A DNA stretch of 64,000 bases from Actinomycetota bacterium (GCA_018830645.1 JAHJSA010000023.1:7482-71481); one strand, 5' to 3'. Numbered from the stretch's first letter, positions 15,634-52,307 are shown. Numbers and translations: made by a program. Notes: generated by a model from the letters alone, not told the origin.

Positions 15634-18384
15634 CTACTTGGCCGAGAGCCAGTCTTCGCCGACGCCGATATCCACCACAAGCGGAGGGTCCATCGCGAAG
15701 GCGGCGATCATCTCGTCGACCGCGATCCGCCTCACGTCTTGGGCCTCGTCTCGCAGGCATTCGAAGATGAGTTCGTCGTGCACCTGCAGCACCAGACGGG
15801 TGTGAGGCGACTCCTGCGCAAGACGCGCGCGGCAGCGGATCATCGCCACCTTGATGATGTCGGCGGCGGTGCCCTGGATGATCGAGTTCACGGCCAGACG
15901 CTCTCCGAGTTGTCTGGTCTGATGGTCGCCGGAGCGCAGCTCCGGGATGGGACGGCGCCGGCCCATCAAGGTGGCCACGAACCCCTGCTTCGTGGCATCG
16001 ACGATGGTGGCGTCGATGAAGGCTCGCACCAGCGGCATCCGCTCGAAGTAGCGTGCGATGTAGGCGGCGGCCTCCTCACGCGCGATGCCCAGCTGCTGCG
16101 CGAGGCCGAACGGCGAGATGCCGTACATGATGCCGAAGTTGACCGCCTTCGCCCAGCGGCGGCGCGTCTGTTCCGGAACCTGGATGTCGGCTCCGAACAC
16201 CTCAGCCGCCGTACGGGCGTGGATGTCCTCCCCGCGTCGAAACGGCTCCAGCAGGGTCGGCTCGCGAGAGATGTGAGCCATGATGCGCAGCTCGATCTGA
16301 GAGTAGTCGGCCACCACGAGGACGCCTCCCTCCTCGGCGGTGAAGCACCCTCTGATCCGAGTCCCGATCTCTGTCCTGATCGGGATGTTCTGAAGATTGG
16401 GATCGCTCGACGAGAGGCGTCCGGTCGCGGCCACCGTCTGATGAAACGTCGTATGCAGCCGCCCTGTGGTGGGGTCCACCGCGCTCGGCAGTGTCAGCAG
16501 ATACGTGGAGAGGAGCTTCGTCAGCTCTCGATACGTCTCGATGAGTTCGATGATGGGGTGCTTCGCGCGAAGCCCCTCCAGCGTGCGTGCGTCCGTCGAA
16601 TACCCCGTCTTGATCTTGCGCCCTCGCGGCAACCCGAGTCTGTCAAAAAGGATCCGGGCCAGCTGTTGAGGAGAACCGAGATTGAACTCCTCCCCGGCCT
16701 CCCGGTAGATCTCATCCTCGAGCCCATCAAGCTGGTCTTCCACTTTGGCCGTGATCTCTCCAAGACGGTAGCAGTCGAGATGGATGCCGGCATTCTCCAT
16801 GTCGATGAGCACACGGGTGAGAGGCAGCTCCACGTCCCGGAACAGACCCCACATGCCCAGCGCCTTCAGTTCACTCTCCTGAAGGCGCGAGAGCTCCAGG
16901 GCCGCCAGAGCCTGAGCGGCGCCTCGGTCCGGGCCCTCCGGCAGCGGCGGGAGACCCGCATCGGCGAGGAGGTCGTCCAACCCGTACGAGCGCTTCCCGG
17001 GAGACAGCAGGTAGGCGGCCACCATCGTGTCGTGGCCGGCTCGGTCGAGAAGCGTGGTGAGCAGACGGTCGCCCTTGAGATCGTGACACGCAGGCCGGCC
17101 TCGAGCGAGAAGACCCTTCACGATTCCGGCGACGCTCTCGGGACCGTCCAGCCTCACCGCAAATGCTCCGGCCGCCGCCCCGCCCCCGCCGGCCGGCTTC
17201 TGCGCGAACCACACATGCGAAGTCCCGGGGGACGCGCCCTCCCGCACACTCGACGACACCCCGAGAGCCCTGGTCCAGTCGAGAGCCGCTTCAAGGCCGG
17301 CGGGGAGGACCGAGCGGCTCTCCAGGGAGGGAGGCTCTGCTTCGGCCGCGCCGACGTCGGGATCTGACCCCCCATCCAAGACCGCCGCCGGCAGCCGGTC
17401 GAGCAGCGATGTGAACTCGAAACGCCGGAACAGAGTCAGGAGCTTCTCGCGATCGGGAGCCTGCCTGCGCATCTCGGCTACGTGCATATCGACCGGGACC
17501 TCCCGATCGATCAACGCCAACGTCTTCGACATGCGGGCGATGTCGGCGTGCTGCCCGAGAAGCTCGCGACGCTTCGGGCCCTTCACCCGATCGATGCTCG
17601 CGAGCACTCCTTCGAGCGAGCCGAACTCCTGCAGGAGTAGAGCCGCGGTCTTCTCTCCGATGCCGGGGACGCCTGGGATGTTGTCCGAGGTATCGCCCTT
17701 CAATCCGATCAGATCTGGGATGAGCAGCGGAGGCACACCGCACTTGTCGGTGACGCCCCCCGGATCGTACACCCGCACCTCGGAGATGCCTTTGGTGTTC
17801 GCCATCACCGAGACCCTATCCGTGACCAATTGCAGGGCATCGCGGTCTCCGGTGACGATCACCACCCGGCGACCCTCGGCGTCACCCTGGCGGGCCAGCG
17901 TCCCCAGGATGTCGTCGGCCTCGTACCCGGGTACGCTCAGGTTGACGAACCCGAGCGCTTCCGCCAGTTCATACAGATGCGGCCACTGGTCGCGCAAGAG
18001 GTCGGGCATGGGCTTGCGCTGTGCCTTGTACTCCTCGAACTCCTTGTGGCGGAAGGTCTTCTCACGCGAATCCCACGCGACGATGACGGCGGAGGGCTCG
18101 AACTCCACGAGGACCTTGATCATCATGGAGCAGAAGCCATAGAGCGCGTTGGTCGGGAACCCCTCCGAAGTGGCGATGGTATCGGGCAGGGCGAAGAACG
18201 CGCGATACGCCAGGTTGTTGCCGTCGATGAGGAAGAGGGGATTCCGCACCTTCCCCCCGCTGGTGGAGTGAGGTGCCTCTGACTCGGGCGAGGCGGCGCG
18301 CGCTGGTGTGAGGTGGTCGTCCACCCCCAGATTGTATCCCCCATGGGGCGGCGGCGCGGCGCCGCCCACGAACCAGGGGCTCAC
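15634..18384 (-). CDS. polA: DNA polymerase I
   Basis: 5'-3' exonuclease domain (LFLIDGNNLAYRAFFALP), polymerase motifs A/B/C (DYSQIELR, RRxAKxxNFGxxYG, VHDE); 3'-5' exo motifs look degenerate; the true start may lie ~40 codons inside the ORF. Confidence 0.9.
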   Translation of the reverse strand: MSPWFVGGAAPPPHGGYNLGVDDHLTPARAASPESEAPHSTSGGKVRNPLFLIDGNNLAYRAFFALPDTIATSEGFPTNALYGFCSMMIKVLVEFEPSAVIVAWDSREKTFRHKEFEEYKAQRKPMPDLLRDQWPHLYELAEALGFVNLSVPGYEADDILGTLARQGDAEGRRVVIVTGDRDALQLVTDRVSVMANTKGISEVRVYDPGGVTDKCGVPPLLIPDLIGLKGDTSDNIPGVPGIGEKTAALLLQEFGSLEGVLASIDRVKGPKRRELLGQHADIARMSKTLALIDREVPVDMHVAEMRRQAPDREKLLTLFRRFEFTSLLDRLPAAVLDGGSDPDVGAAEAEPPSLESRSVLPAGLEAALDWTRALGVSSSVREGASPGTSHVWFAQKPAGGGGAAAGAFAVRLDGPESVAGIVKGLLARGRPACHDLKGDRLLTTLLDRAGHDTMVAAYLLSPGKRSYGLDDLLADAGLPPLPEGPDRGAAQALAALELSRLQESELKALGMWGLFRDVELPLTRVLIDMENAGIHLDCYRLGEITAKVEDQLDGLEDEIYREAGEEFNLGSPQQLARILFDRLGLPRGRKIKTGYSTDARTLEGLRAKHPIIELIETYRELTKLLSTYLLTLPSAVDPTTGRLHTTFHQTVAATGRLSSSDPNLQNIPIRTEIGTRIRGCFTAEEGGVLVVADYSQIELRIMAHISREPTLLEPFRRGEDIHARTAAEVFGADIQVPEQTRRRWAKAVNFGIMYGISPFGLAQQLGIAREEAAAYIARYFERMPLVRAFIDATIVDATKQGFVATLMGRRRPIPELRSGDHQTRQLGERLAVNSIIQGTAADIIKVAMIRCRARLAQESPHTRLVLQVHDELIFECLRDEAQDVRRIAVDEMIAAFAMDPPLVVDIGVGEDWLSAK

Positions 18385-18447
18385 ACCGGGTTGGAGGAGC
18401 GCGACCGCCGCCCCCGGGGTCGGCCGCGCTCTTGCTCCGGCGGTCAG

Positions 18448-20055
18448 CTAGACGCCGAGGATGGTGTCCACTTCGGCCGCGTCCAGATCCATGACGTAGG
18501 GGATGCCCGACACCGCGGATGCCTCTGGCGTCAAGCACGCAAGATCGTCCCGGGTGAGATGCTCGAGCGAGAACTTGCGCGAGCCGGCCATCAACTGGCG
18601 CAGACCTTGGGCAAGACGCTGCGTGTACCCGTACACTCCCACGGCGCCATCCGGCACCGGGCCGATGTCGGCGTACTCCTCGCTCAGCAGCAGGCTGGAG
18701 GCGAAGACGGCATCGCGCGTATGACCGTGCTTCACCACGTGCTTGGGAAGATCGGCGGCGTCGATGTGCCGGCCCACGGTGGCACCGACCATCGCCGCGG
18801 TCAGCGGAGCGCGCGCCATGCCGACGAGACCCACGAACGGGGAACCCATCGCGATGGCCTTGTACAGGTGGTCTTCGAGGGAGAATCCGCCGGCGATGGC
18901 GATGGGCGGCACATACTCTCCGGCCGCGGCGAGACGCGCCGCATACTGGTATGTGAGGGAAGCCAGATAGAAGGTCGGCACCCCCCACTCGTTCATCATG
19001 CGCCACGGGCTCATGCCGGTGCCGCCACCGGCCCCGTCGACCGTGAGCAGGTCGAGCTTCGCCTCGGAGGCGAACTTGATCGCGCGAGCGAGGTCCGCGG
19101 GGCGGTAGGCGCCGGTCTTCAGGAACACGTAGGAGGCTCCGGCGTCGCGGAGCTGACCGACGCGCTCATGGAAGCCGTCGCGGGTGACCATGCCCACCCG
19201 GCTGTGTCGCTCGAACTCCTGGAAGGCCCGCCCAAAGCCCAGCTCGGCTTCGTGGCCCGCCGGGTCGGGCAGCACGAGGTAGCCACGTTCGCGCAACATG
19301 CGCGCCTTTGTCAGATCGGCGATCTTCACCTCGCCGCCGATGTCCTTCGCGCCCTGGCCCCACTTCAACTCGACGGCACGGACACCCAGCTCCTTCACCG
19401 CGTACTCCAACACCCCAAGGCGGCTGTCTTCGACGTTCTCCTGCACCACTATGGCTCCGCCGCCCCGGGCATACTTCCGGTACAGATCCACCCGCCTTCT
19501 CAGCTCCGGCGCATCTTCGATACGTGTTCCTGAGCCGTTCTTGATGACGGCTTCCTCGTCCATGCCCACGACGTTCTCGCCGATCGTGAGCATGATCCCC
19601 GAGATGGCGCAGCCGATCGCGAGCCCCTCCCAATGCCTGCGGGCCACGTCGGTGGAACCGAGGCCGGGCACCACTATGGGCAGTTTCAGCCGGATCCCGC
19701 CATCCTGCCCCAGAGCGACCGAGAGATCGACGTTGGAGAAGATAGCCTCGTCGGAGTCGGCGGCCACGCCGTGCGCGCCGACGGCCGTGCCCATGATCGA
19801 CAGATGTGAGTAGTCAACCGGGTAGTCCTTCTGCGCGGCCGAGGTCATGTGCCCGTAGGGTTGCGGGTAGAGCATCTCAGCTCCGCGGAGAGCCGACTGA
19901 CCGACCTCGCAGTACCCAGGGCAATCGTCTTGACAAACCGCACAGAGCCCGCTCTGAGGGTTGACGTCGCTCAACCGCGAGCGGGTGCCCGTTGCGCCTG
20001 ACCGGTTTGTGTACGAAAGGTTCATGCTGCCCCCATCCTCGGATGACACCGTCAT
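18448..20055 (-). CDS. Standalone FMN-binding glutamate synthase family protein (GltB domain-2 / YerD-like)
   Basis: 535 aa; GltS FMN-domain signature including VDGAGGGTG and a preceding Fe-S cluster-binding region; no amidotransferase domain. Confidence 0.75.
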   Translation of the reverse strand: MTVSSEDGGSMNLSYTNRSGATGTRSRLSDVNPQSGLCAVCQDDCPGYCEVGQSALRGAEMLYPQPYGHMTSAAQKDYPVDYSHLSIMGTAVGAHGVAADSDEAIFSNVDLSVALGQDGGIRLKLPIVVPGLGSTDVARRHWEGLAIGCAISGIMLTIGENVVGMDEEAVIKNGSGTRIEDAPELRRRVDLYRKYARGGGAIVVQENVEDSRLGVLEYAVKELGVRAVELKWGQGAKDIGGEVKIADLTKARMLRERGYLVLPDPAGHEAELGFGRAFQEFERHSRVGMVTRDGFHERVGQLRDAGASYVFLKTGAYRPADLARAIKFASEAKLDLLTVDGAGGGTGMSPWRMMNEWGVPTFYLASLTYQYAARLAAAGEYVPPIAIAGGFSLEDHLYKAIAMGSPFVGLVGMARAPLTAAMVGATVGRHIDAADLPKHVVKHGHTRDAVFASSLLLSEEYADIGPVPDGAVGVYGYTQRLAQGLRQLMAGSRKFSLEHLTRDDLACLTPEASAVSGIPYVMDLDAAEVDTILGV

Positions 20056-20295
20056 ATCACTGAGTCCTGCAGTGCGAAGCGAGATCGGAGGCTTCTAGGA
20101 CATCGGGCCAACTCTACGTGGTCACGTGTAGCTGCCGTTTAGCCTCTTGTATGAAGTTTTCGGATGGGTTGTACGCCTTGTGTACAGGAATGCGAATGGC
20201 GCGCCCGGGAAACGACACCGAGCGCGCCATTCGACGCTCGCGCTGCGACGGCCGGCCCCGGCTGGCGAGCCCGGGGCGCGAACCGCTGCTCGGCC

Positions 20296-21627
20296 CTAAA
20301 GGACGGGCAGGTACCTATCCAACTCGTAGGGAGTCACGACCGCCTTGTATTCGTCCCACTCAGCCTGCTTGTTGCGCACCAGGTACTCGAAGACGTGATC
20401 GCCGAGAGCCTCACGCATGAGCGCGGAGCCTTTGAACTCCTGGATGGCCTCGTGCAGATCGACGGGGAGCGAGTCGATACCCGCCGCGTCCCGCTCGTCC
20501 TCGGTCATCTCGTAGATGTTGTTGGTGGACTCCGGGGACAGCTCGTAGCCCTCTTCGATGCCTTTCAAACCGGCCGCCAGCATCACCGCGAAGGCAAGAT
20601 ACGGGTTGCAGGCCGGATCGGGGTTGCGCATCTCCACCCGTGTCGCTGTTTCCTTGCCCGGCTTGTACATGGGCACCCACACCATCGCCGAGCGGTTGCG
20701 GCGAGCCCAGCAGCAGTAGATGGGAGCCTCGTAGCCGGGAACGAGACGCTTGTACGAGTTCACCCACTGGTTGGTCACCAGGCACATCTCGCGCGCATGC
20801 TTCAGGAGTCCGGCGATGTACGACTTGCCCGCGGCCGAGAGGTGGTACTCGTCGTCGGCATCGAAGAAGGCGTTCCGCGGACCGGTGAACAGCGACTGAT
20901 GAGTGTGCATGCCCGACCCGTTCTCGCCGAAGATGGGCTTGGGCATGAAGGTGGCGTACATGCCACGGGCCTGCGCGACCTCTTTCACGGTGAGGCGGTA
21001 CGTCATGACCTGGTCGGCCATGATGAGGGCTTCCCGGTAGCGCAGGTCGATCTCGTGCTGGGACGGAGCCACCTCGTGATGCGAGTACTCGACGTCGATG
21101 CCGAGGTCCTGGAGCGCGAGGACGGTATCGCGGCGAAGATCGGTAGCGACATCAAGCGGCGTGAGGTCGAAGTAGCCACCCCGATCGAGCACTTCCGTGC
21201 CTTTGCTGTCCTTGAAGTAGAAGAACTCCAGCTCGGGGCCGAGATACATGGTGTATCCGAGATCAGCCGCCTTCTTGAGGGTGCGCTGCAGGATGTGGCG
21301 CGGGTCACCCGGGAACGGGGTGCCGTCGGGACGCTGGATGTCGCAGAACATGCGGGCCGTGCCACCCGAACCGCGCCGCCAGGGCAACACGACAAAGGTG
21401 GACGGATCGGGCATGGCGACCATGTCGGATTCCTGGATGCGCGTGAAACCCTCGATCGACGATCCGTCAAAACCCATGCCCTCATCGAAAGCCGAATCGA
21501 GCTGGGACGGAGTCACCGCGAAGCTCTTCAGGATCCCGAGGACGTCGGTGAACCAGAAGCGCACGAATTTGATGTCCTGATCGCGAACCACACGTAGGAC
21601 GTCGTCCTTCGTCATATCGTTGCCCAT
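20296..21627 (-). CDS. glnA: Glutamine synthetase, type I
   Basis: 443 aa; GS beta-grasp and catalytic domains (FDGSSIEG, KPIFGENGSGMHTHQS, NPYLAFA). Confidence 0.9.
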   Translation of the reverse strand: MGNDMTKDDVLRVVRDQDIKFVRFWFTDVLGILKSFAVTPSQLDSAFDEGMGFDGSSIEGFTRIQESDMVAMPDPSTFVVLPWRRGSGGTARMFCDIQRPDGTPFPGDPRHILQRTLKKAADLGYTMYLGPELEFFYFKDSKGTEVLDRGGYFDLTPLDVATDLRRDTVLALQDLGIDVEYSHHEVAPSQHEIDLRYREALIMADQVMTYRLTVKEVAQARGMYATFMPKPIFGENGSGMHTHQSLFTGPRNAFFDADDEYHLSAAGKSYIAGLLKHAREMCLVTNQWVNSYKRLVPGYEAPIYCCWARRNRSAMVWVPMYKPGKETATRVEMRNPDPACNPYLAFAVMLAAGLKGIEEGYELSPESTNNIYEMTEDERDAAGIDSLPVDLHEAIQEFKGSALMREALGDHVFEYLVRNKQAEWDEYKAVVTPYELDRYLPVL

Positions 21628-21831
21628 GAACTGACCTTCCTGGTGAGTTGTTGGTGCTGCCTACCGGGAAGGGTACCTGCCATTGGCCATAGGAACAACA
21701 CCAAGAGGGCCAACTTTCGACCCAAATCTATTAGCCATTTGGACAAGTGGCAGCGAACGGCTGTGATCGAGCGGTGCTGAGATCGACCGGGGCTCAAGCG
21801 AGCGGCGAGGCGGCACCCACGCCCGAGGTGA

Positions 21832-22707
21832 TCAGTAGGCGTAGAGCTTGCCGTAGGGACGGTGGGTGAACGGGGCTATCTTGCCGAAGGGCTGCGAAAG
21901 CACCTCGGTCTCGTCGAATCCGTGCACTCGACAGAAGTCGGTGACAAGCTCCTCGATGCGGGCCGTGTCCTCGGGAGACGGGTCGACCACACTCACCTCT
22001 TTGCCGAGTTGGTGCCCCTGCACCGACCCGCGAACGTAGATCACACCGCCGTGCATGCCCGTGCCCACGTACGACCCCAGGAGCGGCTCGCTCGAATCGC
22101 CCAACCCGAGCAGGATCATCTCCCCCCCGGCCATGTACTCGCCGAAGAAGTCGCGGGCGCGTCCGCCGATCACGATGACCGGGTGCTGCTCCCCGTAGGC
22201 CTTCATGTGGATGCCCACCCGGTAGCCCACATCGCCGCGCACGTAGACTCGACCGCCGCGCATGCCATACCCGACTACATCCCCCGCATCGCCGCGCACC
22301 ACTACCAGTCCACGGTTCATGGTGTTGGCGATGCCGTCTTGGGCGTTATCGTCCACGATGACCGTGGGACCGTCCATGAAGGCGGCCAGGTCGTTGCCGG
22401 GCACGCCGTTGACCAAGATGGTGAGGTGGTCGGCGCTGATGCCGGCGCCGATGTAGCGTTGGCCGTTGACGTTGTCGAGCGCCACAGTCGATACGCCCGC
22501 TCCCACCAGCTCCCGGATCTGCTCGTTCAAGGTCTTGTAGTAGACGCCCCGGGCGTCGATGTGAGCCGTATCGCCGTCACGTGTCACTAGCCCGCTCTCG
22601 AGGCCGGGCTGGCCGGCCGTGATACGGGCGGGCTCGATGCCCGTGGGCCCGCGCCGAGCGGGGCCGGTGGGGACTCTGCGCACTGATTCCGACGAAGGTG
22701 TCATCAC
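21832..22707 (-). CDS. Glutamate synthase GXGXG-domain subunit (archaeal-type GltB C-terminal domain homologue)
   Basis: Repeated G-x-G-x-G beta-helix motifs (YIGAGISADH, VVVRGDAGDVVGYGMRGG, VYVRGDVGYRVG); immediately downstream of the FMN subunit. Confidence 0.75.
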   Translation of the reverse strand: MMTPSSESVRRVPTGPARRGPTGIEPARITAGQPGLESGLVTRDGDTAHIDARGVYYKTLNEQIRELVGAGVSTVALDNVNGQRYIGAGISADHLTILVNGVPGNDLAAFMDGPTVIVDDNAQDGIANTMNRGLVVVRGDAGDVVGYGMRGGRVYVRGDVGYRVGIHMKAYGEQHPVIVIGGRARDFFGEYMAGGEMILLGLGDSSEPLLGSYVGTGMHGGVIYVRGSVQGHQLGKEVSVVDPSPEDTARIEELVTDFCRVHGFDETEVLSQPFGKIAPFTHRPYGKLYAY

Positions 22708-22717
22708 TCGGCTCTCC

Positions 22718-24244
22718 TTAGTGGCCGACGCCGGCCGGCTTCACGCCGATGATGTCCATGGTCGTCTGGTCGAGTCCGAGCGCGCGCAGACGTTCTCGGC
22801 TGCCACGCAGGCTCTCGATGGCGTTCACCCCGACAGCTCCAAGCACCTCGGCGATCTCGTGACTCCACGCGCGGATCAGGTTGGACACGCGTTCGGCGCC
22901 CCACTCCGGATCCAGGCGGCGAGTGAGCTCCGGGCGCTGTGTGGTGATGCCCCACGAGCAGCAGCCCGTGTGGCACTTCTGACACACGTGGCAGCCCATA
23001 GCGACCAACAACGCGGTGCCCACCCCGCAGGCGTCGGCGCCGAGTGCGATGGCCTTGACGATGTCGGCCGAACTGCGGATCCCGCCTGCGGCGACGATCG
23101 AGGCGCGGTTGCGGATGCCCTCGTCGCGCAGACGCTGGTCGACGACCGCGATCGCGATCTCGATGGGGATACCAACGTGATCGCGGATGATGGTCGGAGC
23201 CGCCCCGGTGCCGCCCTTGAATCCGTCGAGGTAGACGATATCGGCTCCCGCCCGCACGACGCCGGACGCGATGGCGGCCACGTTGTGCACGCAGGCGATC
23301 TTCACCGAAACCGGCTTGTAGCCGGTGGCTTCCTTGATGGCGTAGATGAGCTGCCGCAGGTCTTCGATGGAGTAGATGTCGTGGTGCGGGGCAGGCGAGA
23401 GGGCGTCGGTGCCCTGGGGGATCATGCGGGTGGTCGAGACCTGTTCGTCGATCTTCTCGCCGGGCAGGTGGCCCCCGATGCCGGGCTTGGCACCCTGGCC
23501 AATCTTGATCTCCACCGCCGCGCCGGCCTGCAGGTAGTCGGCGTGCACGCCGAAGCGGCCCGAGGCGCACTGCACGATGATGTTGTCCTGGTAGGGCTCG
23601 AGATCGGCGTGTAGTCCGCCTTCGCCCGTGTTCATGAACGTGCCCGACGCCTTGGCCGCCATGGCCAGGGCCCGGTGCACGTTCAGCGACACCGACCCGA
23701 AGCTCATGCCCCCGAACACGATCGGGGTCTCCAACATCAGTTGCGGGTCGAGTTCGGTGAGGAGCTTCGGAGGCCCCCCGTCGCCGTTTCCATACCCCAC
23801 CACGATGGAGTCCGGCTTGCGGCCCAGGAACGTGCGCAGCTCCATGGGCTCACGCAGCGGGTCGATCGAGGGGTTGGTCACCTGGCACGCGTCGAGCAGA
23901 AGGTGGTCGAATATGCGCAGGTACGGCTTGTCGGTGCCCATGCCCGTGAGCAGCACCCCGCCTGTCTCGGCTTGGCGCCACACGGCCTTCCGCAGAGCTG
24001 ACGACATGCTGTCGGACTCCTTGTAGGCGAGGGGGTTCTTCTCGATGGTGATCGCGTCGGCCGGGCAGAAGGTGACGCAGCGATGGCACGCAGCGCACTT
24101 GGAATGATCGGGCATGGGGCGATCGTCGGCGTCGAGGTGGTACACACCCCAGCCGCACTGGTGCACGCAGCGCCCGCACTTGATGCACGCCTCGCGGTCG
24201 ATGCGCACTCGGAACTCAGGTCTGACGAAGGTCATCTCAGCCAT
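22718..24244 (-). CDS. Glutamate synthase FMN-binding large-subunit homologue with N-terminal 2x[4Fe-4S] ferredoxin domain (archaeal-type)
   Basis: N-terminal CIKCGRCVHQC and CAACHRCVTFCP ferredoxin motifs; FMN/TIM-barrel domain with DGFKGGTGAAP and the C-terminal Cys cluster for the 3Fe-4S centre. Confidence 0.8.
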   Translation of the reverse strand: MAEMTFVRPEFRVRIDREACIKCGRCVHQCGWGVYHLDADDRPMPDHSKCAACHRCVTFCPADAITIEKNPLAYKESDSMSSALRKAVWRQAETGGVLLTGMGTDKPYLRIFDHLLLDACQVTNPSIDPLREPMELRTFLGRKPDSIVVGYGNGDGGPPKLLTELDPQLMLETPIVFGGMSFGSVSLNVHRALAMAAKASGTFMNTGEGGLHADLEPYQDNIIVQCASGRFGVHADYLQAGAAVEIKIGQGAKPGIGGHLPGEKIDEQVSTTRMIPQGTDALSPAPHHDIYSIEDLRQLIYAIKEATGYKPVSVKIACVHNVAAIASGVVRAGADIVYLDGFKGGTGAAPTIIRDHVGIPIEIAIAVVDQRLRDEGIRNRASIVAAGGIRSSADIVKAIALGADACGVGTALLVAMGCHVCQKCHTGCCSWGITTQRPELTRRLDPEWGAERVSNLIRAWSHEIAEVLGAVGVNAIESLRGSRERLRALGLDQTTMDIIGVKPAGVGH

Positions 24245-24253
24245 GGCAGACCT

Positions 24254-25495
24254 CTACGCGACCGCGTTGTACGCGGCTGAGGTGGCAAGGTTGACGCCGT
24301 CTTCCAGCCGCGCGATAACCGGCTCACCGGCACGCGGCATCCAGGTGAGCTCGGGTTTCGGGCAGATCTCGCGGATCGCTGACTCCTCGCTGGCCACGTA
24401 CACGGTCGTGCCCATGCGAGCCGCGGCCAAGGGCCGGAGCTTGATGCGGTCGCTGAGGGCCACCATTCCCTCGCCCATGCCCAGGACGACCGCGAACGGG
24501 CCGTTGAGCAGCGCGGGCCCGTAGACCGCCCGCAGAGCGGTGTACAGCTGACGGTCGTCCTTCTCCATCAGATCGATGTCCTTCCAGAAAGGACTGGCCA
24601 GCGCCTTGCAGGCGATCTCGACCGACAGCCCATGGCGTCGCAGCAAGAGGTCGAACAGATACGTGACCACCTCGGTGTCGGTGCGCATCGAGCACTTGTA
24701 CCCGAACATCTCCAGGTAGCGCTGGTTGATGCCATACGAGCTGATCTCGCCGTTGTGAACGATGCTGTAGTCGAGCAGGCAGAAGGGGTGTGCGCCGCCC
24801 CACCATCCCGGCGTGTTCGTGGGGAAGCGACCATGGCCGGTCCAGGTCCAACCCCTGTACTCGTCGAGGCGGTAGAACTCGCCTATCTCCTCGGGAAACC
24901 CCACGCCCTTGAAAGCGCCCATGTTGCGCCCCGAAGAGGCGACGAAGGCTCCCTTGATGTGGTTGTTCACGTCCATGACCGAGTGGACCACGTAATCTTC
25001 GGCGCTCAGCTGCGTCTCGGCCAAACGCTCGTCGCTGATCTCGAGGAAGTATCGCCAGAGGATGGGCTCGTCTTCGATGCCGCGCACCGACTTCGACGGG
25101 ATCGGCTCGTGATGTAGGATCACGAAATGCCGCGCCAGGTAGTACTCGGTGTCGTCCTTGGCTACGTCGTCGTTGAAGAGCATGTGGAAGCAGAAGGCGT
25201 AGGGGAAGTCGGGATAGATGCCGTAGCCAGCGAAGCCTCCTCCCAAGCCGTTGCCACGGTCGTGCATCGAAGACATGCTGCGCAGAGCGAGCTCGCCGCT
25301 CATGCGACCGCCCGATTCGTCACACACGCCCATCAGTCCGCACCCACCCAGGATGCGTTCCTCGGCCTCGGCCGTGTAGGCCGGTCGCGGAACGAGGTCA
25401 CTCGAACGCGAACCTGGCGCGGGCAGCCCCCCGTAGGGGCGCCTGGCGCTCCGCCTGTCGGCCTCGCCGAATCGGTTGAGACCGCGCGCGCTCAA
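24254..25495 (-). CDS. Class-II (Ntn) glutamine amidotransferase subunit of archaeal-type glutamate synthase; possible N-terminal propeptide
   Basis: GATase-2 fold with nucleophile context G-C-G-L-M-G-V; the Cys is not directly preceded by a start codon; TTG at 25495 overlaps the upstream gene stop (TTGA), implying a ~46-aa propeptide if used. Confidence 0.65.
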   Translation of the reverse strand: MSARGLNRFGEADRRSARRPYGGLPAPGSRSSDLVPRPAYTAEAEERILGGCGLMGVCDESGGRMSGELALRSMSSMHDRGNGLGGGFAGYGIYPDFPYAFCFHMLFNDDVAKDDTEYYLARHFVILHHEPIPSKSVRGIEDEPILWRYFLEISDERLAETQLSAEDYVVHSVMDVNNHIKGAFVASSGRNMGAFKGVGFPEEIGEFYRLDEYRGWTWTGHGRFPTNTPGWWGGAHPFCLLDYSIVHNGEISSYGINQRYLEMFGYKCSMRTDTEVVTYLFDLLLRRHGLSVEIACKALASPFWKDIDLMEKDDRQLYTALRAVYGPALLNGPFAVVLGMGEGMVALSDRIKLRPLAAARMGTTVYVASEESAIREICPKPELTWMPRAGEPVIARLEDGVNLATSAAYNAVA

Positions 25496-26844
25496 CGCTC
25501 CGCCTTCCGCGCGGACAGCATCTTCTTGAGTTCCTCTCCCCCGGTGCGCGGCAGTGGATCCAGCCCCAGTTTGGTCCGGGCGCTCTCCCTCGGCTCGCCC
25601 AGCGATCCTGTCGACAGGAACATGTCATACGCCGAGCGCACCGCAGCCGGCACGCTGCCACGTTCCGCTGACAGCTCCTTCAGCTTGCGGAACACTTCGG
25701 CCATACCCAGCCGGCTATGGCACCGCTCGTAGCACGTGTAGCACTCGAGGCACTTCCACAGGTCGGCACGGTCGATCACCCCGTCGATGTCGCCGGACAA
25801 GATCTCGCCGATGATGCCGGTCGGGCTGAAGCCCGATCCCGCCTTCGTGACCGGACAGTCTTCCTCGCAGGCATGGCAATCGGCGCACTTCTGCAGTTCG
25901 GTCACCGCGAAGTCGCGTGCGATCTCTCGATGCTGGGCGGCTCTCTCGTTCCACTTCTCGAGGAAAGGCTCGGTGCTCACTCGGTGCATCGAGAGCCCGA
26001 TCTCGTCGGGCTCGTGGCCGAGCGTAAGCGCGAACAGCTCCGAGTAGTAGAAGACAGGGAGACCGGCCCGGGCCTCGGCTCCCCGAAGGAGTGAGGCTTG
26101 ATTCAAGTCGAACTGCTGAAGACAGGAGGGGCACACCACCACGAGCGCATCCACTCCCACTCCAGTGAGGTCATCGAGCTTGTTCCGGCAGAGATCGAGG
26201 GCACTGTCGCGCTCGCCGACGCGGTCGAGAGCGCCGCCGCAGCAGTCCATCTTGGTCTCGTAGTCAACGACGGTCGCGCCCAGGGCCCGCACCAGGTCTT
26301 CGAGTTTGGTGGGATTGGTCGAGCTATCCCAACGCACAGCCGGGCTTGGCCGCAAGAGGTGGCAGCCGTAGTGCACGGCCACGCGCATGCCCCACAGGGG
26401 CTTCTGCACCATCTTCGCGATGGCGGCCGGGCCGAGCTCCTCGTAGAGCCACTCGGCCAGGTGACTCACCGCGGGCAGCGACACCTCACGTGGGTGGCCC
26501 TCACCTTCCGAGACGATGTCGGCGACTCGGTCGGCGAGCCGCCAATCGGCCCGAAGGGTCGCCGAGACCGACTTGAACGTTGAGTAGCAGCCGTTGCAGG
26601 GGGTGACGATGGAGACACCCGCTTCGTCGGCCAGGAAGAGGTTCCGCGCGGCCGTGGCGTAGTAGGCCTCTTCATCCATGGCCTTCATCAGCGTGCCTTC
26701 AGGGCAGCACGTGTAGCCTTCCACCGCGACGGGTAGGCCACCGGCGGCGGCGATTGCGATCCTCGTGGACTTCTCTATGAACGGGAAGCGGGCTGGGATG
26801 GTGCAACCCCAGAACACCGAGAACGTCTTGGGCATCACTGTCAC
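25492..26844 (-). CDS. Iron-sulfur protein with two N-terminal CCG (Cys-rich HdrB-type) domains and a C-terminal 2x[4Fe-4S] HdrC-like domain
   Basis: CCG motifs (YTCCPEG, TPCNGCYSTF, MDCCGGALD, VVCPSCLQQF) followed by CADCHACEEDCP and CLECYTCYERC ferredoxin motifs; translationally coupled to the amidotransferase gene. Confidence 0.7.
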   Translation of the reverse strand: MTVMPKTFSVFWGCTIPARFPFIEKSTRIAIAAAGGLPVAVEGYTCCPEGTLMKAMDEEAYYATAARNLFLADEAGVSIVTPCNGCYSTFKSVSATLRADWRLADRVADIVSEGEGHPREVSLPAVSHLAEWLYEELGPAAIAKMVQKPLWGMRVAVHYGCHLLRPSPAVRWDSSTNPTKLEDLVRALGATVVDYETKMDCCGGALDRVGERDSALDLCRNKLDDLTGVGVDALVVVCPSCLQQFDLNQASLLRGAEARAGLPVFYYSELFALTLGHEPDEIGLSMHRVSTEPFLEKWNERAAQHREIARDFAVTELQKCADCHACEEDCPVTKAGSGFSPTGIIGEILSGDIDGVIDRADLWKCLECYTCYERCHSRLGMAEVFRKLKELSAERGSVPAAVRSAYDMFLSTGSLGEPRESARTKLGLDPLPRTGGEELKKMLSARKAER

Positions 26845-26905
26845 CTGCTGAGTCTTGCGCCTTTATGCCGAGCGACACGAGATTACCGAGCACCCCCGAA
26901 GTCGT

Positions 26906-28048
26906 TCATCCACTGGGGGTAAGACAGTCTACCCCCGGAGGTCGCCTCGCATTCATGTACATCTGGCGTACAGGGCCACCCGCCTTCGTGGCCACATGTA
27001 CTACGTAGCCGAGACTTCGGGCGCGCCGGAATCCCGCTGGAGGCGGAGAGTATGTCTCGAGCGGGTTGGCGGGAAGCCCCTGGCGGGGCGAGCCGTGGTT
27101 GTAGTCTCGCGGCGCCACGTCGTTCGGCGAATCCGGATAGAAGATCGAGGCAAGGGTTTGGATGTGGTCCCTCCCGGGCCCGAGCTCGAACTGCCCGCCG
27201 CCGTACATGGGGATCGACTCCGCCTGACAGAATCCGATCGCTTCGAGCAACCGAGCCAGTGAGCCGAAGCGAGAGGGTTTGATGTTGATGGCCCCAGGTC
27301 GAGAGGCCAGCGCCTGTATGTCGGCGACCGAGTGGATGGGCGCATCCCAGCTGATGCGATCCTGTGCGTCGGCGATGAGCTCGAGCGCTTCATCGCATGG
27401 CGCGGGGTCCTCGATCCACACATCGGGGAAGCTCTCGACCACCCGACGGTAGAGGGCGGGGTCGAAGTCTTGATCGACCGGAGTACCGCGATAGGCCCCC
27501 TTGAGGTCGACCACGCGCACACGGCCGGTATCGGCGAGAGCGCGGCAGAGGTCGGGGCTCCACGAACTCTGCGCGTCGAGCTTGAACTCCAGCGAGGGCT
27601 GCGCTTCTAGCCAACCCAACACCACCATCGCGTCGGGAGGGTCGCCCAGCCGCGTCGAGACGACGAAGCGTGTGGGACGTTCCCCCACCCCGAGCGCACC
27701 ACCGAGTGATAGCCCGTTCTGGCGCAGGGCCAGATCGAGCGCGGCGCTCTCGAACCCCCACCGCGAGTAGGCCTCGGTCTCCAAAGGCAGGAGCGGTTCG
27801 AGCAGGGCCGAGAAACCGGCGAGATCGCCCTCGTAGCGCAAGTCGAACCGGGAGTGCACCGGGAGCACCGCCTCGTGGGCGGCGGCATCGTAGGTGACGT
27901 CTTCACCGCGCCCCTCCTCCCCCGCTCCCCGAAGGGTCACCACGGTGGTGACCCGCGTGAACCCGCTGGACACGTCTCGGCTCAGGGACGCGAGCCCGTG
28001 CCCCTTGACCGCCAGGGAGAGACCGGCCACACGCGCGTAATCGGTCAT
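26906..28048 (-). CDS. Enolase-superfamily protein (mandelate racemase/muconate lactonising enzyme, o-succinylbenzoate synthase-like)
   Basis: Pattern of barrel residues FKLD, VVDLKG, WIEDP, ISWDAPIHSVADI, INIKPSRFGS and MYGGGQFE resembles MLE/OSBS metal-ligand and catalytic-Lys positions; C-terminus of the ORF is probably shorter than the track suggests. Confidence 0.45.
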   Translation of the reverse strand: MTDYARVAGLSLAVKGHGLASLSRDVSSGFTRVTTVVTLRGAGEEGRGEDVTYDAAAHEAVLPVHSRFDLRYEGDLAGFSALLEPLLPLETEAYSRWGFESAALDLALRQNGLSLGGALGVGERPTRFVVSTRLGDPPDAMVVLGWLEAQPSLEFKLDAQSSWSPDLCRALADTGRVRVVDLKGAYRGTPVDQDFDPALYRRVVESFPDVWIEDPAPCDEALELIADAQDRISWDAPIHSVADIQALASRPGAINIKPSRFGSLARLLEAIGFCQAESIPMYGGGQFELGPGRDHIQTLASIFYPDSPNDVAPRDYNHGSPRQGLPANPLETYSPPPAGFRRARSLGYVVHVATKAGGPVRQMYMNARRPPGVDCLTPSG

Positions 28049-28064
28049 GCCTGCTCCTTCTGCG

Positions 28065-28943: not shown

Positions 28944-29197
28944 GCGCTGAACGATAGCACAGGGTCGCAGGACATGGTCGCGGGGCAGGTTCGCAGAACA
29001 CAGTCGCAGAAGAGGTTCACCGCTCGGGGGCGATGGCGTTCGGTCGACCGTTCCGCACGCTCCGGCGCGAGGGCGGGAGGCATGCGTCTCCGCGCATGCT
29101 AGGTCGGGCGGGTTCAGTGACGGGGTCATTACATTTGTCCGGCTCCGGTAGGGTAAACTCTGGTAGCAACGATCGAGCTGATCTGGAGTGCGCCGCA

Positions 29198-30265: not shown

Positions 30266-30312
30266 AGCTGCTCAAGCGTCGATTCGACACCGGTGAGATC
30301 ACCGCGTTCGAG

Positions 30313-35639: not shown

Positions 35640-35644
35640 ATGCC

Positions 35645-46063: not shown

Positions 46064-46106
46064 GTGCGCACCTCCTTTCTCTCGCTCGTAGTGACAGGCC
46101 GTCTCA

Positions 46107-46772: not shown

Positions 46773-46874
46773 CTCCTCTCATCCGTCTTCGTCACTGTCT
46801 TCCCTCGATCACTCCTCGCGCCGAACAACAGAGTTCGACCCCACGGAGCACGTCAACCGCCCGTTGCGCGCACG

Positions 46875-46991: not shown

Positions 46992-47005
46992 GTAAGACCA
47001 CCTCC

Positions 47006-47284: not shown

Positions 47285-47315
47285 GTGTAGCTTCGCCACG
47301 TATCCCCCTCTCAGC

Positions 47316-48395: not shown

Positions 48396-48412
48396 CTATC
48401 GACCCCCTTTCG

Positions 48413-51001: not shown

Positions 51002-51012
51002 CTGCGAACCCC

Positions 51013-52262: not shown

Positions 52263-52307
52263 CTACCGCCCGCCCTTCCTCTCACCACTCTCTTCTGCAT
52301 GATGGTG

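What the first reader, a model, noticed from the sequence alone, without database searches (positions are those of the whole stretch)
18448..26844. Archaeal-type split glutamate synthase operon coupled to an HdrB/HdrC-like Fe-S protein and glnA, plus a standalone YerD-like FMN protein
The gene order is HdrB/C-like (CCG domains + 2x[4Fe-4S]), then a class-II amidotransferase, then the FMN subunit with N-terminal ferredoxin domain, then the GXGXG subunit, then (204-nt gap) glnA, then (240-nt gap) a second FMN-GltS-family protein. The Hdr-like gene's TGA overlaps the amidotransferase's TTG (TTGA), implying co-translation. A CCG-domain protein as a dedicated redox partner of a three-subunit GOGAT is not a textbook arrangement. 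It hints at ferredoxin- or thiol/disulfide-linked electron supply for ammonia assimilation in this anaerobe.
Basis: partly seen in the sequence, partly recalled or inferred. Interest (0 to 1): 0.6.

Follow-up and report, generated by a model that had tools for sequence, protein, structure and literature searches.

The report
Glutamate synthase with HdrBC-like fourth subunit
A three-piece, archaeal-style glutamate synthase is always encoded directly behind a fused heterodisulfide-reductase B/C-like iron-sulfur protein, in bacteria and archaea alike, which points to an undescribed way of feeding electrons into ammonia assimilation.

Summary
On the minus strand lie six genes:
- an HdrB-HdrC fusion (2 CCG motifs plus 2 ferredoxin-type cluster motifs)
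- a class-II amidotransferase, whose TTG start overlaps the Hdr-like TGA stop
- a ferredoxin-FMN glutamate synthase subunit
- a GXGXG subunit
- type I glnA
- a second FMN-binding GltS-family protein

- Hdr-like followed by amidotransferase: 82 of 82 informative related loci.
- All three GOGAT genes: 52 of 52.
- A start codon within 11 nt of the Hdr-like stop: 85 of 88.

The same four-gene unit, with unrelated flanks, occurs at 30-36% Hdr identity in a Thermoplasmata-like archaeon, a Lokiarchaeion and Candidatus Schekmanbacteria. A split HdrB+HdrC version sits directly upstream of the FMN subunit. A C-then-B fusion sits with HdrA instead, which serves as a control.

All 18 cluster cysteines are conserved, and the AlphaFold model superposes on HdrB (TM 0.92).

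Best reading: a four-subunit glutamate synthase whose electron-input module is HdrBC-like and probably oxidises a thiol, by analogy with thiol:fumarate reductase. The donor is unproven. I found no paper describing this. It is a new variant of a known kind.

The parts
25492..26844 (-). HdrB-HdrC fusion protein. Residues about 1-300 are HdrB-like with two CCG motifs; residues about 305-410 are HdrC-like with two CX2CX2CX3C motifs; a conserved C-terminal tail follows. The probable true start is the ATG at 26835 (447 aa).
   Evidence: Pfam and NCBIfam. PDB phmmer: HdrB chains 9sfi_C, 8rvu_b and 5odc_B at E about 1e-55 over the full length, and HdrC 5odc_C at E 4e-15. AF2 pLDDT 91; Foldseek TM 0.91-0.93, rmsd 2.1 A to HdrB. 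All 10 CCG cysteines and 8 ferredoxin-type cysteines are invariant or nearly invariant in 26 diverse family members and in 119 of 119 close ones.
25492..25495 (-). TTGA: the start codon of the amidotransferase overlaps the stop codon of the Hdr-like gene (translational coupling).
   Evidence: Sequence. The ortholog L001 has an in-frame Met one codon upstream of the position aligned with the window's TTG start. A 4-nt overlap occurs in 56 of 88 related loci, and a start within 11 nt in 85 of 88.
24254..25495 (-). Class-II (Ntn) glutamine amidotransferase subunit (GltB1-type), with an N-terminal pro-sequence of about 50 residues before the nucleophile Cys in 'ILGG-CGLMGV'.
   Evidence: Pfam GATase_2/6/7. 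A pro-sequence of variable length precedes the conserved Cys in all orthologs, partly conserved as RPxYxxExExRILGG.
22718..24244 (-). Synthase subunit (GltB2-type): an N-terminal 2x[4Fe-4S] ferredoxin domain (CIKCGRCVHQC, CAACHRCVTFC), then the FMN/2-oxoglutarate domain with the GltB Fe-S cysteine triad plus two extra Cys (GCHVCQKCHTGCC).
   Evidence: Pfam Glu_synthase 460 bits plus Fer4 families. PDB hits to GltB large chains at E about 1e-65. In the alignment to Azospirillum GltB 2vdc_A, three of these cysteines fall on GltB cysteines in GCIMVRQCHSNTCP. That these three are the [3Fe-4S] ligands is from my own knowledge.
21832..22707 (-). GXGXG subunit (GltB3-type). The N-terminal 40 or so residues of the ORF are doubtful.
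   Evidence: Pfam GXGXG 110.6 bits. Orthologs align from residue about 2 (close) or about 33-46 (distant).
21707..21723 (-). Terminator-like hairpin in the 204-nt gap between the GXGXG gene and glnA. It is a possible end of the four-gene transcript.
   Evidence: Consensus scan only. The region is AT-richer. No Rfam match.
20296..21627 (-). Glutamine synthetase type I (GlnA, 443 aa).
   Evidence: TIGR00653 516 bits, above the 429 cut-off. It lies within 3 kb downstream of the GXGXG gene in 29 of 36 related loci.
20219..20240 (-). Terminator-like hairpin just after glnA.
   Evidence: Consensus scan only.
18448..20055 (-). Stand-alone 'FMN-binding glutamate synthase family protein' (535 aa) with an N-terminal CAVCQDDCPGYC motif. 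Function unknown.
   Evidence: Pfam Glu_synthase over residues 295-410 only, 45 bits. No NCBIfam hit and no PDB sequence hit. Homologs of 61-63% identity occur across many bacterial and archaeal phyla. It is found next to this cluster at three different positions in different lineages.

Best explanation
The first four genes encode one enzyme: an archaeal-type glutamate synthase (amidotransferase + ferredoxin/FMN synthase + GXGXG subunits) with a fourth subunit, an HdrB-HdrC fusion, as its dedicated electron-input module.

**Proposed path** (inferred, not shown):
1. A two-electron donor is oxidised at the pair of non-cubane [4Fe-4S] clusters of the HdrB-like half. The donor is most likely a thiol or dithiol.
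2. Electrons pass through the two cubane clusters of the HdrC-like half.
3. They continue through the two clusters of the N-terminal ferredoxin domain of the synthase subunit.
4. They reach its GltB-type Fe-S cluster and then FMN.
5. FMN reduces the 2-iminoglutarate formed from 2-oxoglutarate and the ammonia channelled from glutamine hydrolysis.

GlnA next door supplies the glutamine, completing a GS-GOGAT cycle.

In function this mirrors thiol:fumarate reductase (TfrAB) of methanogens, where an HdrB-like CCG module taps the thiol pool for a biosynthetic flavin-dependent reduction. It fills the role played by GltD (NAD(P)H) or FrhB-like 'subunit 4' (F420H2) in other glutamate synthases.
For: **Shown here**
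- *Domain identity* of all four proteins.
- *Adjacency.* Hdr-like followed by amidotransferase in 82 of 82 loci; the full set in 52 of 52.
- *Junction.* The translationally coupled stop/start junction is conserved in 85 of 88 loci.
- *Breadth.* The same four-gene unit occurs at 30-36% Hdr identity, with unrelated flanks, in a Thermoplasmata-like archaeon (L096), a Lokiarchaeion (L097/P0142) and Candidatus Schekmanbacteria (L104). P0165's contig and three of four short contigs of other distant members (L099-L101) also continue into an amidotransferase; the fourth (L098) is suggestive only.
- *Split version.* HdrB (304 aa) plus HdrC (141 aa) lies immediately upstream of a ferredoxin-FMN synthase gene (L102). 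This ties the module specifically to the redox subunit.
- *Control.* A C-then-B fusion of similar similarity sits with HdrA/FlpD and 2-oxoacid:ferredoxin oxidoreductase genes, not GOGAT (L103).
- *No rival partner.* No HdrA, GltD or FrhB-like gene lies in any of the inspected operons.
- *Intact HdrB site.* All 10 CCG cysteines and 8 ferredoxin-type cysteines are conserved, together with HdrB residues R67, N68, K222, Q244, D246 and Q249. The fold matches HdrB at TM 0.92. The HdrB site therefore looks intact rather than vestigial.
- *Regulation.* Nitrogen-regulatory neighbours occur in other lineages: a PdtaS-like kinase with an ANTAR regulator upstream and GlnR downstream, and an AsnC-type regulator upstream in the archaeon.

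**Precedent**
- A swappable 'subunit 4' is documented: FrhB-like subunits of putative F420-dependent archaeal glutamate synthases (PMC3087415, PMC3448663).
- TfrB appears among the NCBIfam matches (E 3e-17).
Against: - No biochemical, expression or structural-complex evidence was available. Physical association is inferred from gene order only.
- The donor is unknown.
- One of the three arginines that bind coenzyme B in M. thermolithotrophicus HdrB (R240) is Leu here, though it is also Val in the Methanothermobacter enzyme. The CoM-side 'CCPAPG' is 'CCPEGT'. R208 is variable outside the Actinomycetota clade. CoM-S-S-CoB is therefore unlikely to be the universal substrate.
- Actinomycetota are not known to make CoM or CoB (own knowledge).
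- The synthase subunit already carries its own ferredoxin domain, which could accept electrons from ferredoxin without help.
- No Rosetta-stone fusion of the Hdr-like protein to a GOGAT subunit was found.
Confidence: 0.55

Rival explanations
1. Same four-subunit complex, but no thiol chemistry. The HdrBC-like subunit is only an Fe-S wire or docking platform. It takes electrons from reduced ferredoxin, from another redox protein encoded elsewhere, or from menaquinol at the membrane surface, as CCG proteins do in type-E succinate:quinone reductase, GlpC and EtfD.
For: - CCG-domain proteins with non-thiol partners exist. LutA and EtfD appear among the structural matches. SdhE/MFR anchor, GlpC, GlcF and LldF-type families appear among the NCBIfam matches.
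- The organism has ferredoxin-linked enzymes: an aldehyde:ferredoxin oxidoreductase at 40874-42856.
- CoB/CoM-binding features are only partly kept.
Against: - The protein is far closer to true HdrB (E 1e-55, 34-35% identity, TM 0.92) than to SdhE, LutA or EtfD.
- It keeps the non-cysteine residues conserved in HdrB.
- The model shows no long hydrophobic segment (not analysed formally).
- The synthase subunit's own ferredoxin domain would make an extra relay redundant.
Confidence: 0.25
2. The module works in the canonical Hdr direction. The FMN subunit takes the place of HdrA. Electrons leave the flavin or ferredoxin domain through HdrC and HdrB to reduce a disulfide. This could be an overflow or safety valve, or glutamate oxidation coupled to disulfide reduction.
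For: - The N-terminal ferredoxin domain of the synthase subunit resembles the C-terminal ferredoxin domain of HdrA (7bkb_A residues 588-651, E 1e-6). From my own recollection of the HdrABC structure, that is the part of HdrA that feeds HdrC.
- In L102 the HdrB+HdrC+FMN genes occur without adjacent amidotransferase or GXGXG genes, and with a glutamate dehydrogenase gene nearby.
Against: - In 52 of 52 full loci the amidotransferase and GXGXG subunits are present, and glnA usually follows. Nitrogen regulators flank the operon. All this points to assimilation, not glutamate catabolism.
- Similarity between 2x[4Fe-4S] domains is generic.
Confidence: 0.08
3. The HdrBC-like protein is a redox-sensing regulatory subunit. 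It gates glutamate synthase activity according to the thiol/disulfide state of the cell and does not carry catalytic electron flux.
For: Only indirect. It diverges faster than the catalytic subunits: 55-69% identity against 73-90% for the FMN subunit in the same loci.
Against: - Eighteen strictly conserved cluster cysteines and a complete HdrC-type wire are costly for a sensor.
- The position as first, translationally coupled gene suggests stoichiometric assembly.
Confidence: 0.07
4. Fortuitous adjacency: the Hdr-like gene belongs to another pathway and merely lies next to the GOGAT genes in this lineage.
For: None found.
Against: - 82 of 82 and 52 of 52 conservation, with conserved overlapping junctions.
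- The same unit in three further phylum-level groups from both domains, with different flanks.
- Upstream neighbours vary (enolase-superfamily gene, ANTAR regulator, AsnC regulator, small GTPase, FBP aldolase).
Confidence: 0.02

Closest known systems
Archaeal-type (split) glutamate synthase, GltB1/GltB2/GltB3 (for example the Methanocaldococcus MJ1350-1352 type)
   Same: Three separate genes for the amidotransferase, the FMN/Fe-S synthase with an N-terminal 2x[4Fe-4S] domain, and the GXGXG domain. The order is amidotransferase-synthase-GXGXG.
   Different: A fourth, translationally coupled gene for an HdrB-HdrC fusion always precedes them. The amidotransferase has a pro-sequence before Cys1.
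Putative F420H2-dependent glutamate synthases FGltS(I)/(II) of methanogens, with an FrhB/FdhB-like 'subunit 4' (PMC3087415, PMC3448663)
   Same: The same logic: an archaeal-type GOGAT core plus an extra, exchangeable electron-input subunit inferred from gene context.
   Different: The input subunit here is HdrBC-like (CCG non-cubane clusters), not FrhB-like (FAD/F420 site). It is found in bacteria as well as archaea.
Thiol:fumarate reductase TfrAB of Methanothermobacter (recalled from the literature; the family is named in NCBIfam NF004898)
   Same: A CCG-domain, HdrB-like Fe-S module coupled to a flavoenzyme that performs a biosynthetic reduction. This is the proposed functional analogy: thiols as reductant.
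   Different: TfrB is fused to a succinate-dehydrogenase-type Fe-S subunit and serves an FAD fumarate reductase. Similarity to the window protein is weak (62 bits). The acceptor here is 2-iminoglutarate on FMN.
Heterodisulfide reductase HdrABC (5ODC, 7BKB, 8RVU)
   Same: HdrB fold with both CCG motifs. HdrC-type double cubane-cluster domain. 34-35% identity and TM 0.92 to HdrB.
   Different: No HdrA partner. B and C are fused in B-then-C order. The scores fall below the HdrB and HdrC equivalog cut-offs. CoM/CoB-contacting features are only partly kept. It is linked to GOGAT genes rather than hydrogenase, formate dehydrogenase or Flx genes.
Bacterial NADPH-glutamate synthase GltBD
   Same: The same chemistry at the FMN site. 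The GltB Fe-S cysteine triad is conserved. Electrons arrive through a chain of Fe-S clusters from a separate input subunit.
   Different: The input subunit is GltD (FAD, NADPH) in GltBD. No GltD-like gene lies in the window or in the inspected operons.

Membership tests
Archaeal-type split glutamate synthase (GltB1/2/3) | Class-II (Ntn) amidotransferase subunit with a nucleophile Cys | tested here: met
   GATase_2 42.5 bits against a cut-off of 19.9. The conserved 'G-CG[LIM]' Cys is at residue 51, behind a pro-sequence that would have to be cleaved. Cleavage itself was not testable.
Archaeal-type split glutamate synthase (GltB1/2/3) | FMN/2-oxoglutarate synthase domain with the GltB Fe-S cluster cysteines | tested here: met
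   PF01645 459.8 bits. Three cysteines align with cysteines of Azospirillum GltB 2vdc_A, with two extra Cys. That those GltB cysteines are the [3Fe-4S] ligands is from my own knowledge.
Archaeal-type split glutamate synthase (GltB1/2/3) | N-terminal 2x[4Fe-4S] ferredoxin domain on the synthase subunit | tested here: met
   Fer4 family hits at residues 12-76. Two CX2CX2CX3C motifs are visible in the sequence.
Archaeal-type split glutamate synthase (GltB1/2/3) | Separate GXGXG subunit | tested here: met
   PF01493 110.6 bits against a cut-off of 32.5.
Archaeal-type split glutamate synthase (GltB1/2/3) | Glutamine + 2-oxoglutarate to 2 glutamate activity | not testable with these tools
   Needs an enzyme assay.
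HdrB (CCG-domain, non-cubane [4Fe-4S] protein) | Two CCG motifs (C...CC...CXXC), ten cysteines | tested here: met
   C14, C46, C47, C83, C86 and C161, C201, C202, C238, C241. Conserved in 119 of 119 close and 24 of 24 diverse homologs.
HdrB (CCG-domain, non-cubane [4Fe-4S] protein) | HdrB fold | tested here: met
   AF2 pLDDT 91. Foldseek TM 0.91-0.93, rmsd 2.1 A to 5odc_B, 8rwn_B and 7bkb_B.
HdrB (CCG-domain, non-cubane [4Fe-4S] protein) | Score above the NCBIfam equivalog cut-off for CoB-CoM heterodisulfide reductase subunit B | tested here: not met
   TIGR03288 238.5 bits against a cut-off of 345.15. NF041780 106 against 450.
HdrB (CCG-domain, non-cubane [4Fe-4S] protein) | Residues that hold CoM and CoB in M. 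thermolithotrophicus HdrB (R14, R201, R240; G46, G198; from PMC13261682) | tested here: inconclusive
   R14 corresponds to R19 and R201 to R208. Both are kept in the window protein and its clade. R240 corresponds to L247, but that position is also Val in Methanothermobacter HdrB. CCPAPG is CCPEGT. R208 is variable in distant members.
Canonical heterodisulfide reductase complex HdrABC | Association with HdrA (FAD, bifurcating subunit) | tested here: not met
   No HdrA-like gene in the window's annotated genes or in the gene tables of L013, L015, L096, L097 and L104. The C-then-B fusion control L103 does have one.
HdrC | Two CX2CX2CX3C motifs for two [4Fe-4S] clusters, HdrC-like fold | tested here: met
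   C320, C323, C326, C330 and C365, C368, C371, C375 are invariant. 5odc_C E 4e-15. Foldseek TMt about 0.6. The TIGR03290 score of 62 is below the 160 cut-off.
F420-dependent glutamate synthase (FGltS) | FrhB/FdhB-like F420-binding subunit next to the GOGAT genes | tested here: not met
   No such gene in the operon here or in the inspected loci.
NAD(P)H-glutamate synthase (GltBD) | GltD-type FAD/NAD(P)H subunit | tested here: not met
   None among the annotated genes of the 64-kb window or in the inspected operons. The rest of the genome was not available.
N-methylglutamate synthase MgsABC (methylamine pathway) | Three GltB-like subunits without external electron input, next to gmaS (GS-like) and mgdABCD | tested here: not met
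   The synthase subunit carries a ferredoxin domain and the GltB Fe-S triad. The neighbouring GS passes the true GlnA type I cut-off. No mgd genes are present. The description of Mgs features is from my own knowledge.
Thiol:fumarate reductase-like thiol-oxidising module (TfrB) | Thiol-dependent reduction of the flavoenzyme's substrate | not testable with these tools
   Only weak sequence similarity (NF004898 62 bits against a cut-off of 385). It is used as a functional analogy, not as membership.

The most novel reading that the evidence does not exclude
A fourth class of glutamate synthase, beside the NAD(P)H-, ferredoxin- and putative F420-dependent ones. It would be a thiol-oxidising (disulfide-forming) GOGAT in which an HdrBC-type module draws the two electrons for glutamate synthesis from a low-molecular-weight or protein thiol. 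Nitrogen assimilation would then be coupled directly to the cellular thiol/disulfide pool. The enzyme is spread across Asgard archaea, Thermoplasmata/Methanomassiliicoccales, Altiarchaeales, Actinomycetota, Schekmanbacteria, Planctomycetota and Armatimonadota. In methanogen relatives the thiols could be CoM-SH and CoB-SH, as for thiol:fumarate reductase.
Probability: 0.3. Interest if true: 0.8.

Novelty: new variant of a known kind. Interest (0 to 1): 0.65.

Why it matters
- **An open question becomes testable.** The physiological reductant of archaeal-type glutamate synthases is largely unknown. Only gene-context proposals such as F420 exist. A strictly conserved, translationally coupled HdrBC-like fourth subunit gives a concrete hypothesis for a large set of uncultured anaerobes in both domains.
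- **A new job for the HdrB site.** It would extend the known uses of the non-cubane HdrB active site beyond energy metabolism (methanogenesis, sulfur oxidation, sulfate reduction) to central nitrogen assimilation.
- **Annotation.** These genes are currently labelled 'heterodisulfide reductase subunit B/C'. That label can mislead metabolic reconstructions of MAGs into inferring Hdr-based energy conservation.

Tried and rejected
- **Literature.** Six full-text searches combined glutamate synthase with Hdr, CCG, HdrBC, archaeal-type and F420 terms. The candidate papers were read. None describes an HdrBC-GOGAT unit. They yielded only the FrhB 'subunit 4' precedent and unrelated GltD-like domains. 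This covers only the open-access library.
- **Metagenome scan with the 26-sequence alignment.** It failed for lack of a conserved stretch. A 9-sequence alignment worked.
- **Rosetta-stone fusions** of the Hdr-like protein with a GOGAT subunit. The long hits turned out to be TPR-CCG proteins, C-then-B fusions or a probable frameshift artefact.
- **RNA elements.** An Rfam search of 17500-30000 for a glutamine riboswitch, ANTAR targets or similar found nothing at E up to 1. The promoter scan found nothing. The terminator-like hits are weak consensus matches.
- **Amidotransferase start.** I tested whether the TTG start was an artefact and the real start lay further downstream. I rejected this for three reasons:
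  - no other in-frame start lies upstream of the nucleophile Cys
  - the extension is conserved at protein level
  - L001 has an in-frame Met one codon upstream of the aligned position
- **N-methylglutamate synthase reading.** The methylamine genes nearby prompted it. I rejected it on the Fe-S and ferredoxin features and the true GlnA.
- **Second FMN protein.** No PDB sequence relative and no NCBIfam model. Its function stays open.
  - checking whether the same genomes lack gltD
  - checking the context of further stand-alone HdrB relatives such as P0161 and P0162
  - multimer structure prediction

Full report
**1. What is there**

The window has 65% G+C. By its closest relatives it comes from an uncultured Actinomycetota bacterium. 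The Hdr-like protein is 100% identical to MBU2601193.1 from an 'Actinobacteria/Actinomycetota bacterium' MAG. Next relatives are Thermoleophilia and Gaiellales MAGs.

Between 18448 and 26844, six genes lie head to tail on the minus strand. Pfam and NCBIfam identify them as follows.

| Gene | Coordinates | Size | Identity |
|---|---|---|---|
| i | 25492-26844 | 450-aa ORF | Two CCG stretches (91 bits) plus a C-terminal double [4Fe-4S] domain. Best NCBIfam matches are HdrB (TIGR03288, 238 bits) and HdrC (TIGR03290, 62 bits), both below the equivalog cut-offs |
| ii | 24254-25495 | 413 aa | Class-II glutamine amidotransferase |
| iii | 22718-24244 | 508 aa | N-terminal ferredoxin domain plus the Glu_synthase FMN domain (460 bits) |
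| iv | 21832-22707 | 291 aa | GXGXG |
| v | 20296-21627 | 443 aa | GlnA type I, above cut-off |
| vi | 18448-20055 | 535 aa | Only a partial Glu_synthase match |

- The stated gaps (204 and 240 nt) and the TTGA stop/start overlap are exact.
- Genes ii, iii and iv are separated by 9 and 10 nt.
- The Hdr-like gene probably starts at the ATG at 26835, behind an AGGTGA box. This gives the 447 aa of the public protein.

**2. The Hdr-like protein is a real HdrB-HdrC fusion**

- *Sequence.* Against PDB sequences, residues 8-297 match HdrB of four methanogen complexes over their full length (E about 1e-55). Residues about 308-406 match HdrC (E 4e-15).
- *Structure.* An AlphaFold2 model built on 26 diverse homologs has pLDDT 91. 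It superposes on HdrB with TM 0.91-0.93 and rmsd 2.1 A, and on HdrC with TM about 0.6. LutA, a Helicobacter CCG protein and EtfD follow far behind.
- *Cluster ligands.* All ten cysteines of the two CCG motifs, and all eight cysteines of the two CX2CX2CX3C motifs, are conserved. They are invariant or nearly so in 26 homologs of 30-50% identity, and present in 119 of 119 close homologs.
- *Other residues.* R67, N68, Y195, K222, Q244, D246 and Q249 are conserved too. They are also the majority residues in the stand-alone HdrB-like set.
- *Substrate contacts.* A 2026 paper on M. thermolithotrophicus Hdr names the contacts for coenzyme B (R14, R201, R240) and coenzyme M (backbone of G46 and G198) (PMC13261682).
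  - In the window protein, R14 and R201 correspond to R19 and R208. Both are invariant in its own clade.
  - R240 corresponds to Leu. That position is also Val in Methanothermobacter HdrB.
  - CCPAPG is replaced by CCPEGT.
  - R208 is not conserved in distant family members.
- *Conclusion.* The cluster site looks catalytically intact, but the heterodisulfide of methanogens is unlikely to be the general substrate.

**3. The GOGAT subunits**

- *Synthase subunit.* It aligns with the FMN domain of bacterial and plant GltB (E about 1e-65). Three of its cysteines fall on GltB cysteines that, from my own knowledge, ligate the [3Fe-4S] cluster, and it has two more (GCHVCQKCHTGCC against GCIMVRQCHSNTCP). 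Its N-terminal 70 residues hold two ferredoxin-type motifs.
- *Amidotransferase.* Its nucleophile Cys sits at residue 51 (ILGG-CGLMGV). No alternative in-frame start exists between the TTG and that Cys. The extension is partly conserved at protein level in orthologs (RPxYxxExExRILGG). L001 has an in-frame Met one codon upstream of the aligned position. Distant orthologs also have extensions before the Cys, of varying length. The subunit is therefore probably made as a pro-protein and self-processed, as is known for GltB and PurF (own knowledge).

**4.

*Close and medium relatives.*
- Twelve GTDB species genomes (Hdr identity 60-92%) all show Hdr-like, amidotransferase, synthase, GXGXG and glnA in that order. 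The outer flanks change in five of them.
- Eighty metagenome loci (42-76% identity) were added.
- After removing duplicates, the counts are as follows.

| Test | Loci |
|---|---|
| Amidotransferase follows the Hdr-like gene | 82 of 82 with at least 400 nt of downstream sequence |
| All three GOGAT genes follow | 52 of 52 with enough sequence |
| glnA within 3 kb downstream | 29 of 36 |
| In-frame start for the amidotransferase within 11 nt of the Hdr-like stop | 85 of 88 |
| 4-nt overlap | 56 of 88 |

- The three junction exceptions show fragmented hits that suggest assembly errors.

*Distant relatives.*
- An exhaustive search of 1.84 billion cluster representatives found about 35 full-length B-then-C fusions, down to 30% identity. 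Ordinary 290-aa HdrB proteins came next in the ranking.
- Context look-ups for these gave the results below.

| Protein | Identity | Locus and taxon | Context |
|---|---|---|---|
| P0153 | 32% | L096, an archaeon (Cdc6, prefoldin, Pcc1 nearby; homologs named Thermoplasmata/Methanomassiliicoccales) | Same four overlapping genes, behind an AsnC-type regulator |
| P0142 | 33% | L097, named Lokiarchaeia | Same four genes |
| P0396 | 36% to P0153 | L104, Candidatus Schekmanbacteria | Same four genes, between an aldolase and an RF-1-family gene |
| P0165 | 32% | contig without DNA | Hdr-like, then amidotransferase |

- Four short contigs (L098-L101) continue into a partial ORF. It is a significant amidotransferase match in three and suggestive in L098.
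- Names attached to other members include Sigynarchaeota, Altiarchaeales, Halobacteriota, Planctomycetota and Armatimonadota.

*Two informative variants.*
- P0151 is a stand-alone HdrB of 46% identity. It is followed by a 141-aa HdrC-like gene and then directly by a ferredoxin-FMN synthase gene, with no amidotransferase or GXGXG gene adjacent (L102). This ties the module to the redox subunit.
- P0159 is a C-then-B fusion of 34% identity. It lies with an HdrA/FlpD-like gene and 2-oxoacid:ferredoxin oxidoreductase genes and no GOGAT genes (L103). This is a natural negative control.

*Regulators.* In two Coriobacteriia-like loci, a PdtaS-like kinase and an ANTAR response regulator lie upstream and a GlnR-type regulator lies downstream. 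This fits nitrogen control.

Fortuitous adjacency is excluded.

**5. How it most likely works**

*Shown:* the domain content, the intact cluster ligands, the strict and translationally coupled linkage, and the absence of HdrA, GltD or FrhB-type genes in the inspected operons.

*Inferred:* the Hdr-like protein is the fourth subunit and the electron entry point. The proposed chain runs from the non-cubane clusters, through the HdrC clusters and the ferredoxin-domain clusters, to the GltB-type cluster, FMN and finally 2-iminoglutarate.

*The donor.* I favour a thiol or dithiol for three reasons.
- The protein is much closer to true HdrB than to quinone- or lactate-linked CCG proteins.
- It retains the HdrB active-site residues.
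- There is a precedent, recalled from the literature and not tested here. Thiol:fumarate reductase of Methanothermobacter uses a CCG module to reduce fumarate with CoM-SH and CoB-SH.

From my own rough estimate, based on the glutamate dehydrogenase equilibrium and glutamine hydrolysis and not computed here, the acceptor couple lies around -0.05 to -0.13 V. Common thiol couples at about -0.14 to -0.29 V could then drive it, whereas menaquinol would be marginal.

*Alternatives:* a plain relay from ferredoxin or another partner, reverse operation as a disulfide reductase fed by the flavin, or a redox-sensing role. These are listed with their tests.

*Precedent for a swappable input subunit.* FrhB-like 'subunit 4' has been proposed for F420-dependent archaeal glutamate synthases (PMC3087415, PMC3448663).

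**6. The other two genes**

- *glnA.* It is a genuine type I glutamine synthetase. It has its own AT-richer upstream region and terminator-like hairpins before and after it. It is probably a separate transcript, kept next to the operon in most relatives.
- *The 535-aa protein.* It belongs to a very widespread and highly conserved family. Homologs of 61-63% identity occur in Planctomycetota, Acidobacteriota, Bathyarchaeia, Zixibacteria and others, named 'FMN-binding glutamate synthase family protein'. It has no solved relative by sequence. In different lineages it lies after glnA, between the GXGXG gene and glnA (L015), or just upstream of the Hdr-like gene (L027, L036). Being rearranged but still linked hints at a role in the same metabolism. 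Its function remains unknown.

**7. Novelty and verdict**

Six full-text searches and the papers read turned up no description of an HdrBC-linked glutamate synthase. Public annotations call the gene 'heterodisulfide reductase subunit B/C' or '4Fe-4S dicluster domain-containing protein'.

The components are all known kinds, and a variable input subunit has a precedent. I therefore rate it a new variant of a known kind, not categorically new.

Three points make it interesting:
- the linkage is strict and spans both domains
- it gives a testable answer to the unresolved question of the reductant of archaeal-type GOGAT
- it would move HdrB chemistry into nitrogen assimilation

The main weakness is that everything beyond gene content and context is inference.

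Noticed in passing
window 44603-54887 (minus strand), with tRNA at 52308-52379: A complete pyrrolysine system in an Actinomycetota MAG.
- tRNA-Pyl with anticodon CTA.
- PylS C-terminal domain gene at 51013-51960 (TIGR02367 284 bits, above cut-off).
- PylB within the ORF 49904-51535 (438 bits; the ORF overlaps pylS, so the true start is probably further downstream).
- PylC at 48717-49910 (312 bits).
- PylD and PylSn were not looked for.
   Followed up: partly
window 32752-34158, 34158-35687, 44603-46165, 53487-54887 (all minus strand): Two dimethylamine (MtbB-type) and two trimethylamine (MttB-type) methyltransferase genes each carry one in-frame TAG at the expected pyrrolysine position (codons 354, 347, 363 and 355). 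Nearby genes:
- an uninterrupted MttB-family gene (31215-32708)
- a cognate corrinoid protein (46107-46772)
- an MtaA/MtbA-like methyltransferase (52458-53486)
- an AsnC-type regulator (35645-36169)

Methylamine demethylation releases ammonia, which the adjacent GS-GOGAT genes could assimilate.
   Followed up: partly
window 24254-25495; L096, L097, L013, L015: Every amidotransferase subunit of this operon type has an N-terminal extension before the nucleophile Cys (about 17 to 77 residues in the examples inspected). This implies obligatory pro-peptide removal. The extension begins at the stop codon of the Hdr-like gene.
   Followed up: partly
L013 5801-7799 and 15160-15831; L015 5038-7095 and 16293-16964: In Coriobacteriia-like relatives the operon is preceded by a PdtaS-like GAF histidine kinase and an ANTAR response regulator. 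It is followed, after glnA, by a GlnR-type OmpR-family regulator. In the window these are absent; an enolase-superfamily gene and a radical-SAM gene lie upstream instead.
   Followed up: no
L102 7001-9856: A split HdrB (304 aa) plus HdrC (141 aa) pair lies directly upstream of a ferredoxin-FMN glutamate synthase subunit, with no amidotransferase or GXGXG gene adjacent. A glutamate dehydrogenase gene lies 5 kb upstream. This may be an ammonia-dependent or reverse-acting variant.
   Followed up: no
window 40874-42856 and 29033-31119: A tungsten-type aldehyde:ferredoxin oxidoreductase (AFOR) and a MoxR AAA+ / VWA pair. The former supports an anaerobic, ferredoxin-using lifestyle.
   Followed up: no
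L011 11060-14134: In one MAG contig the stop-to-stop frame that holds the amidotransferase runs on for 1024 codons into the synthase gene. This is either a natural GltB1-GltB2 fusion or an assembly error.
   Followed up: no
window 20100-20200 and 21700-21760 (minus strand): The two long intergenic regions, upstream of glnA and upstream of the second FMN gene, are locally AT-richer, and both contain a GGCTAA element. No Rfam family matches. Possible regulator binding sites.
   Followed up: no
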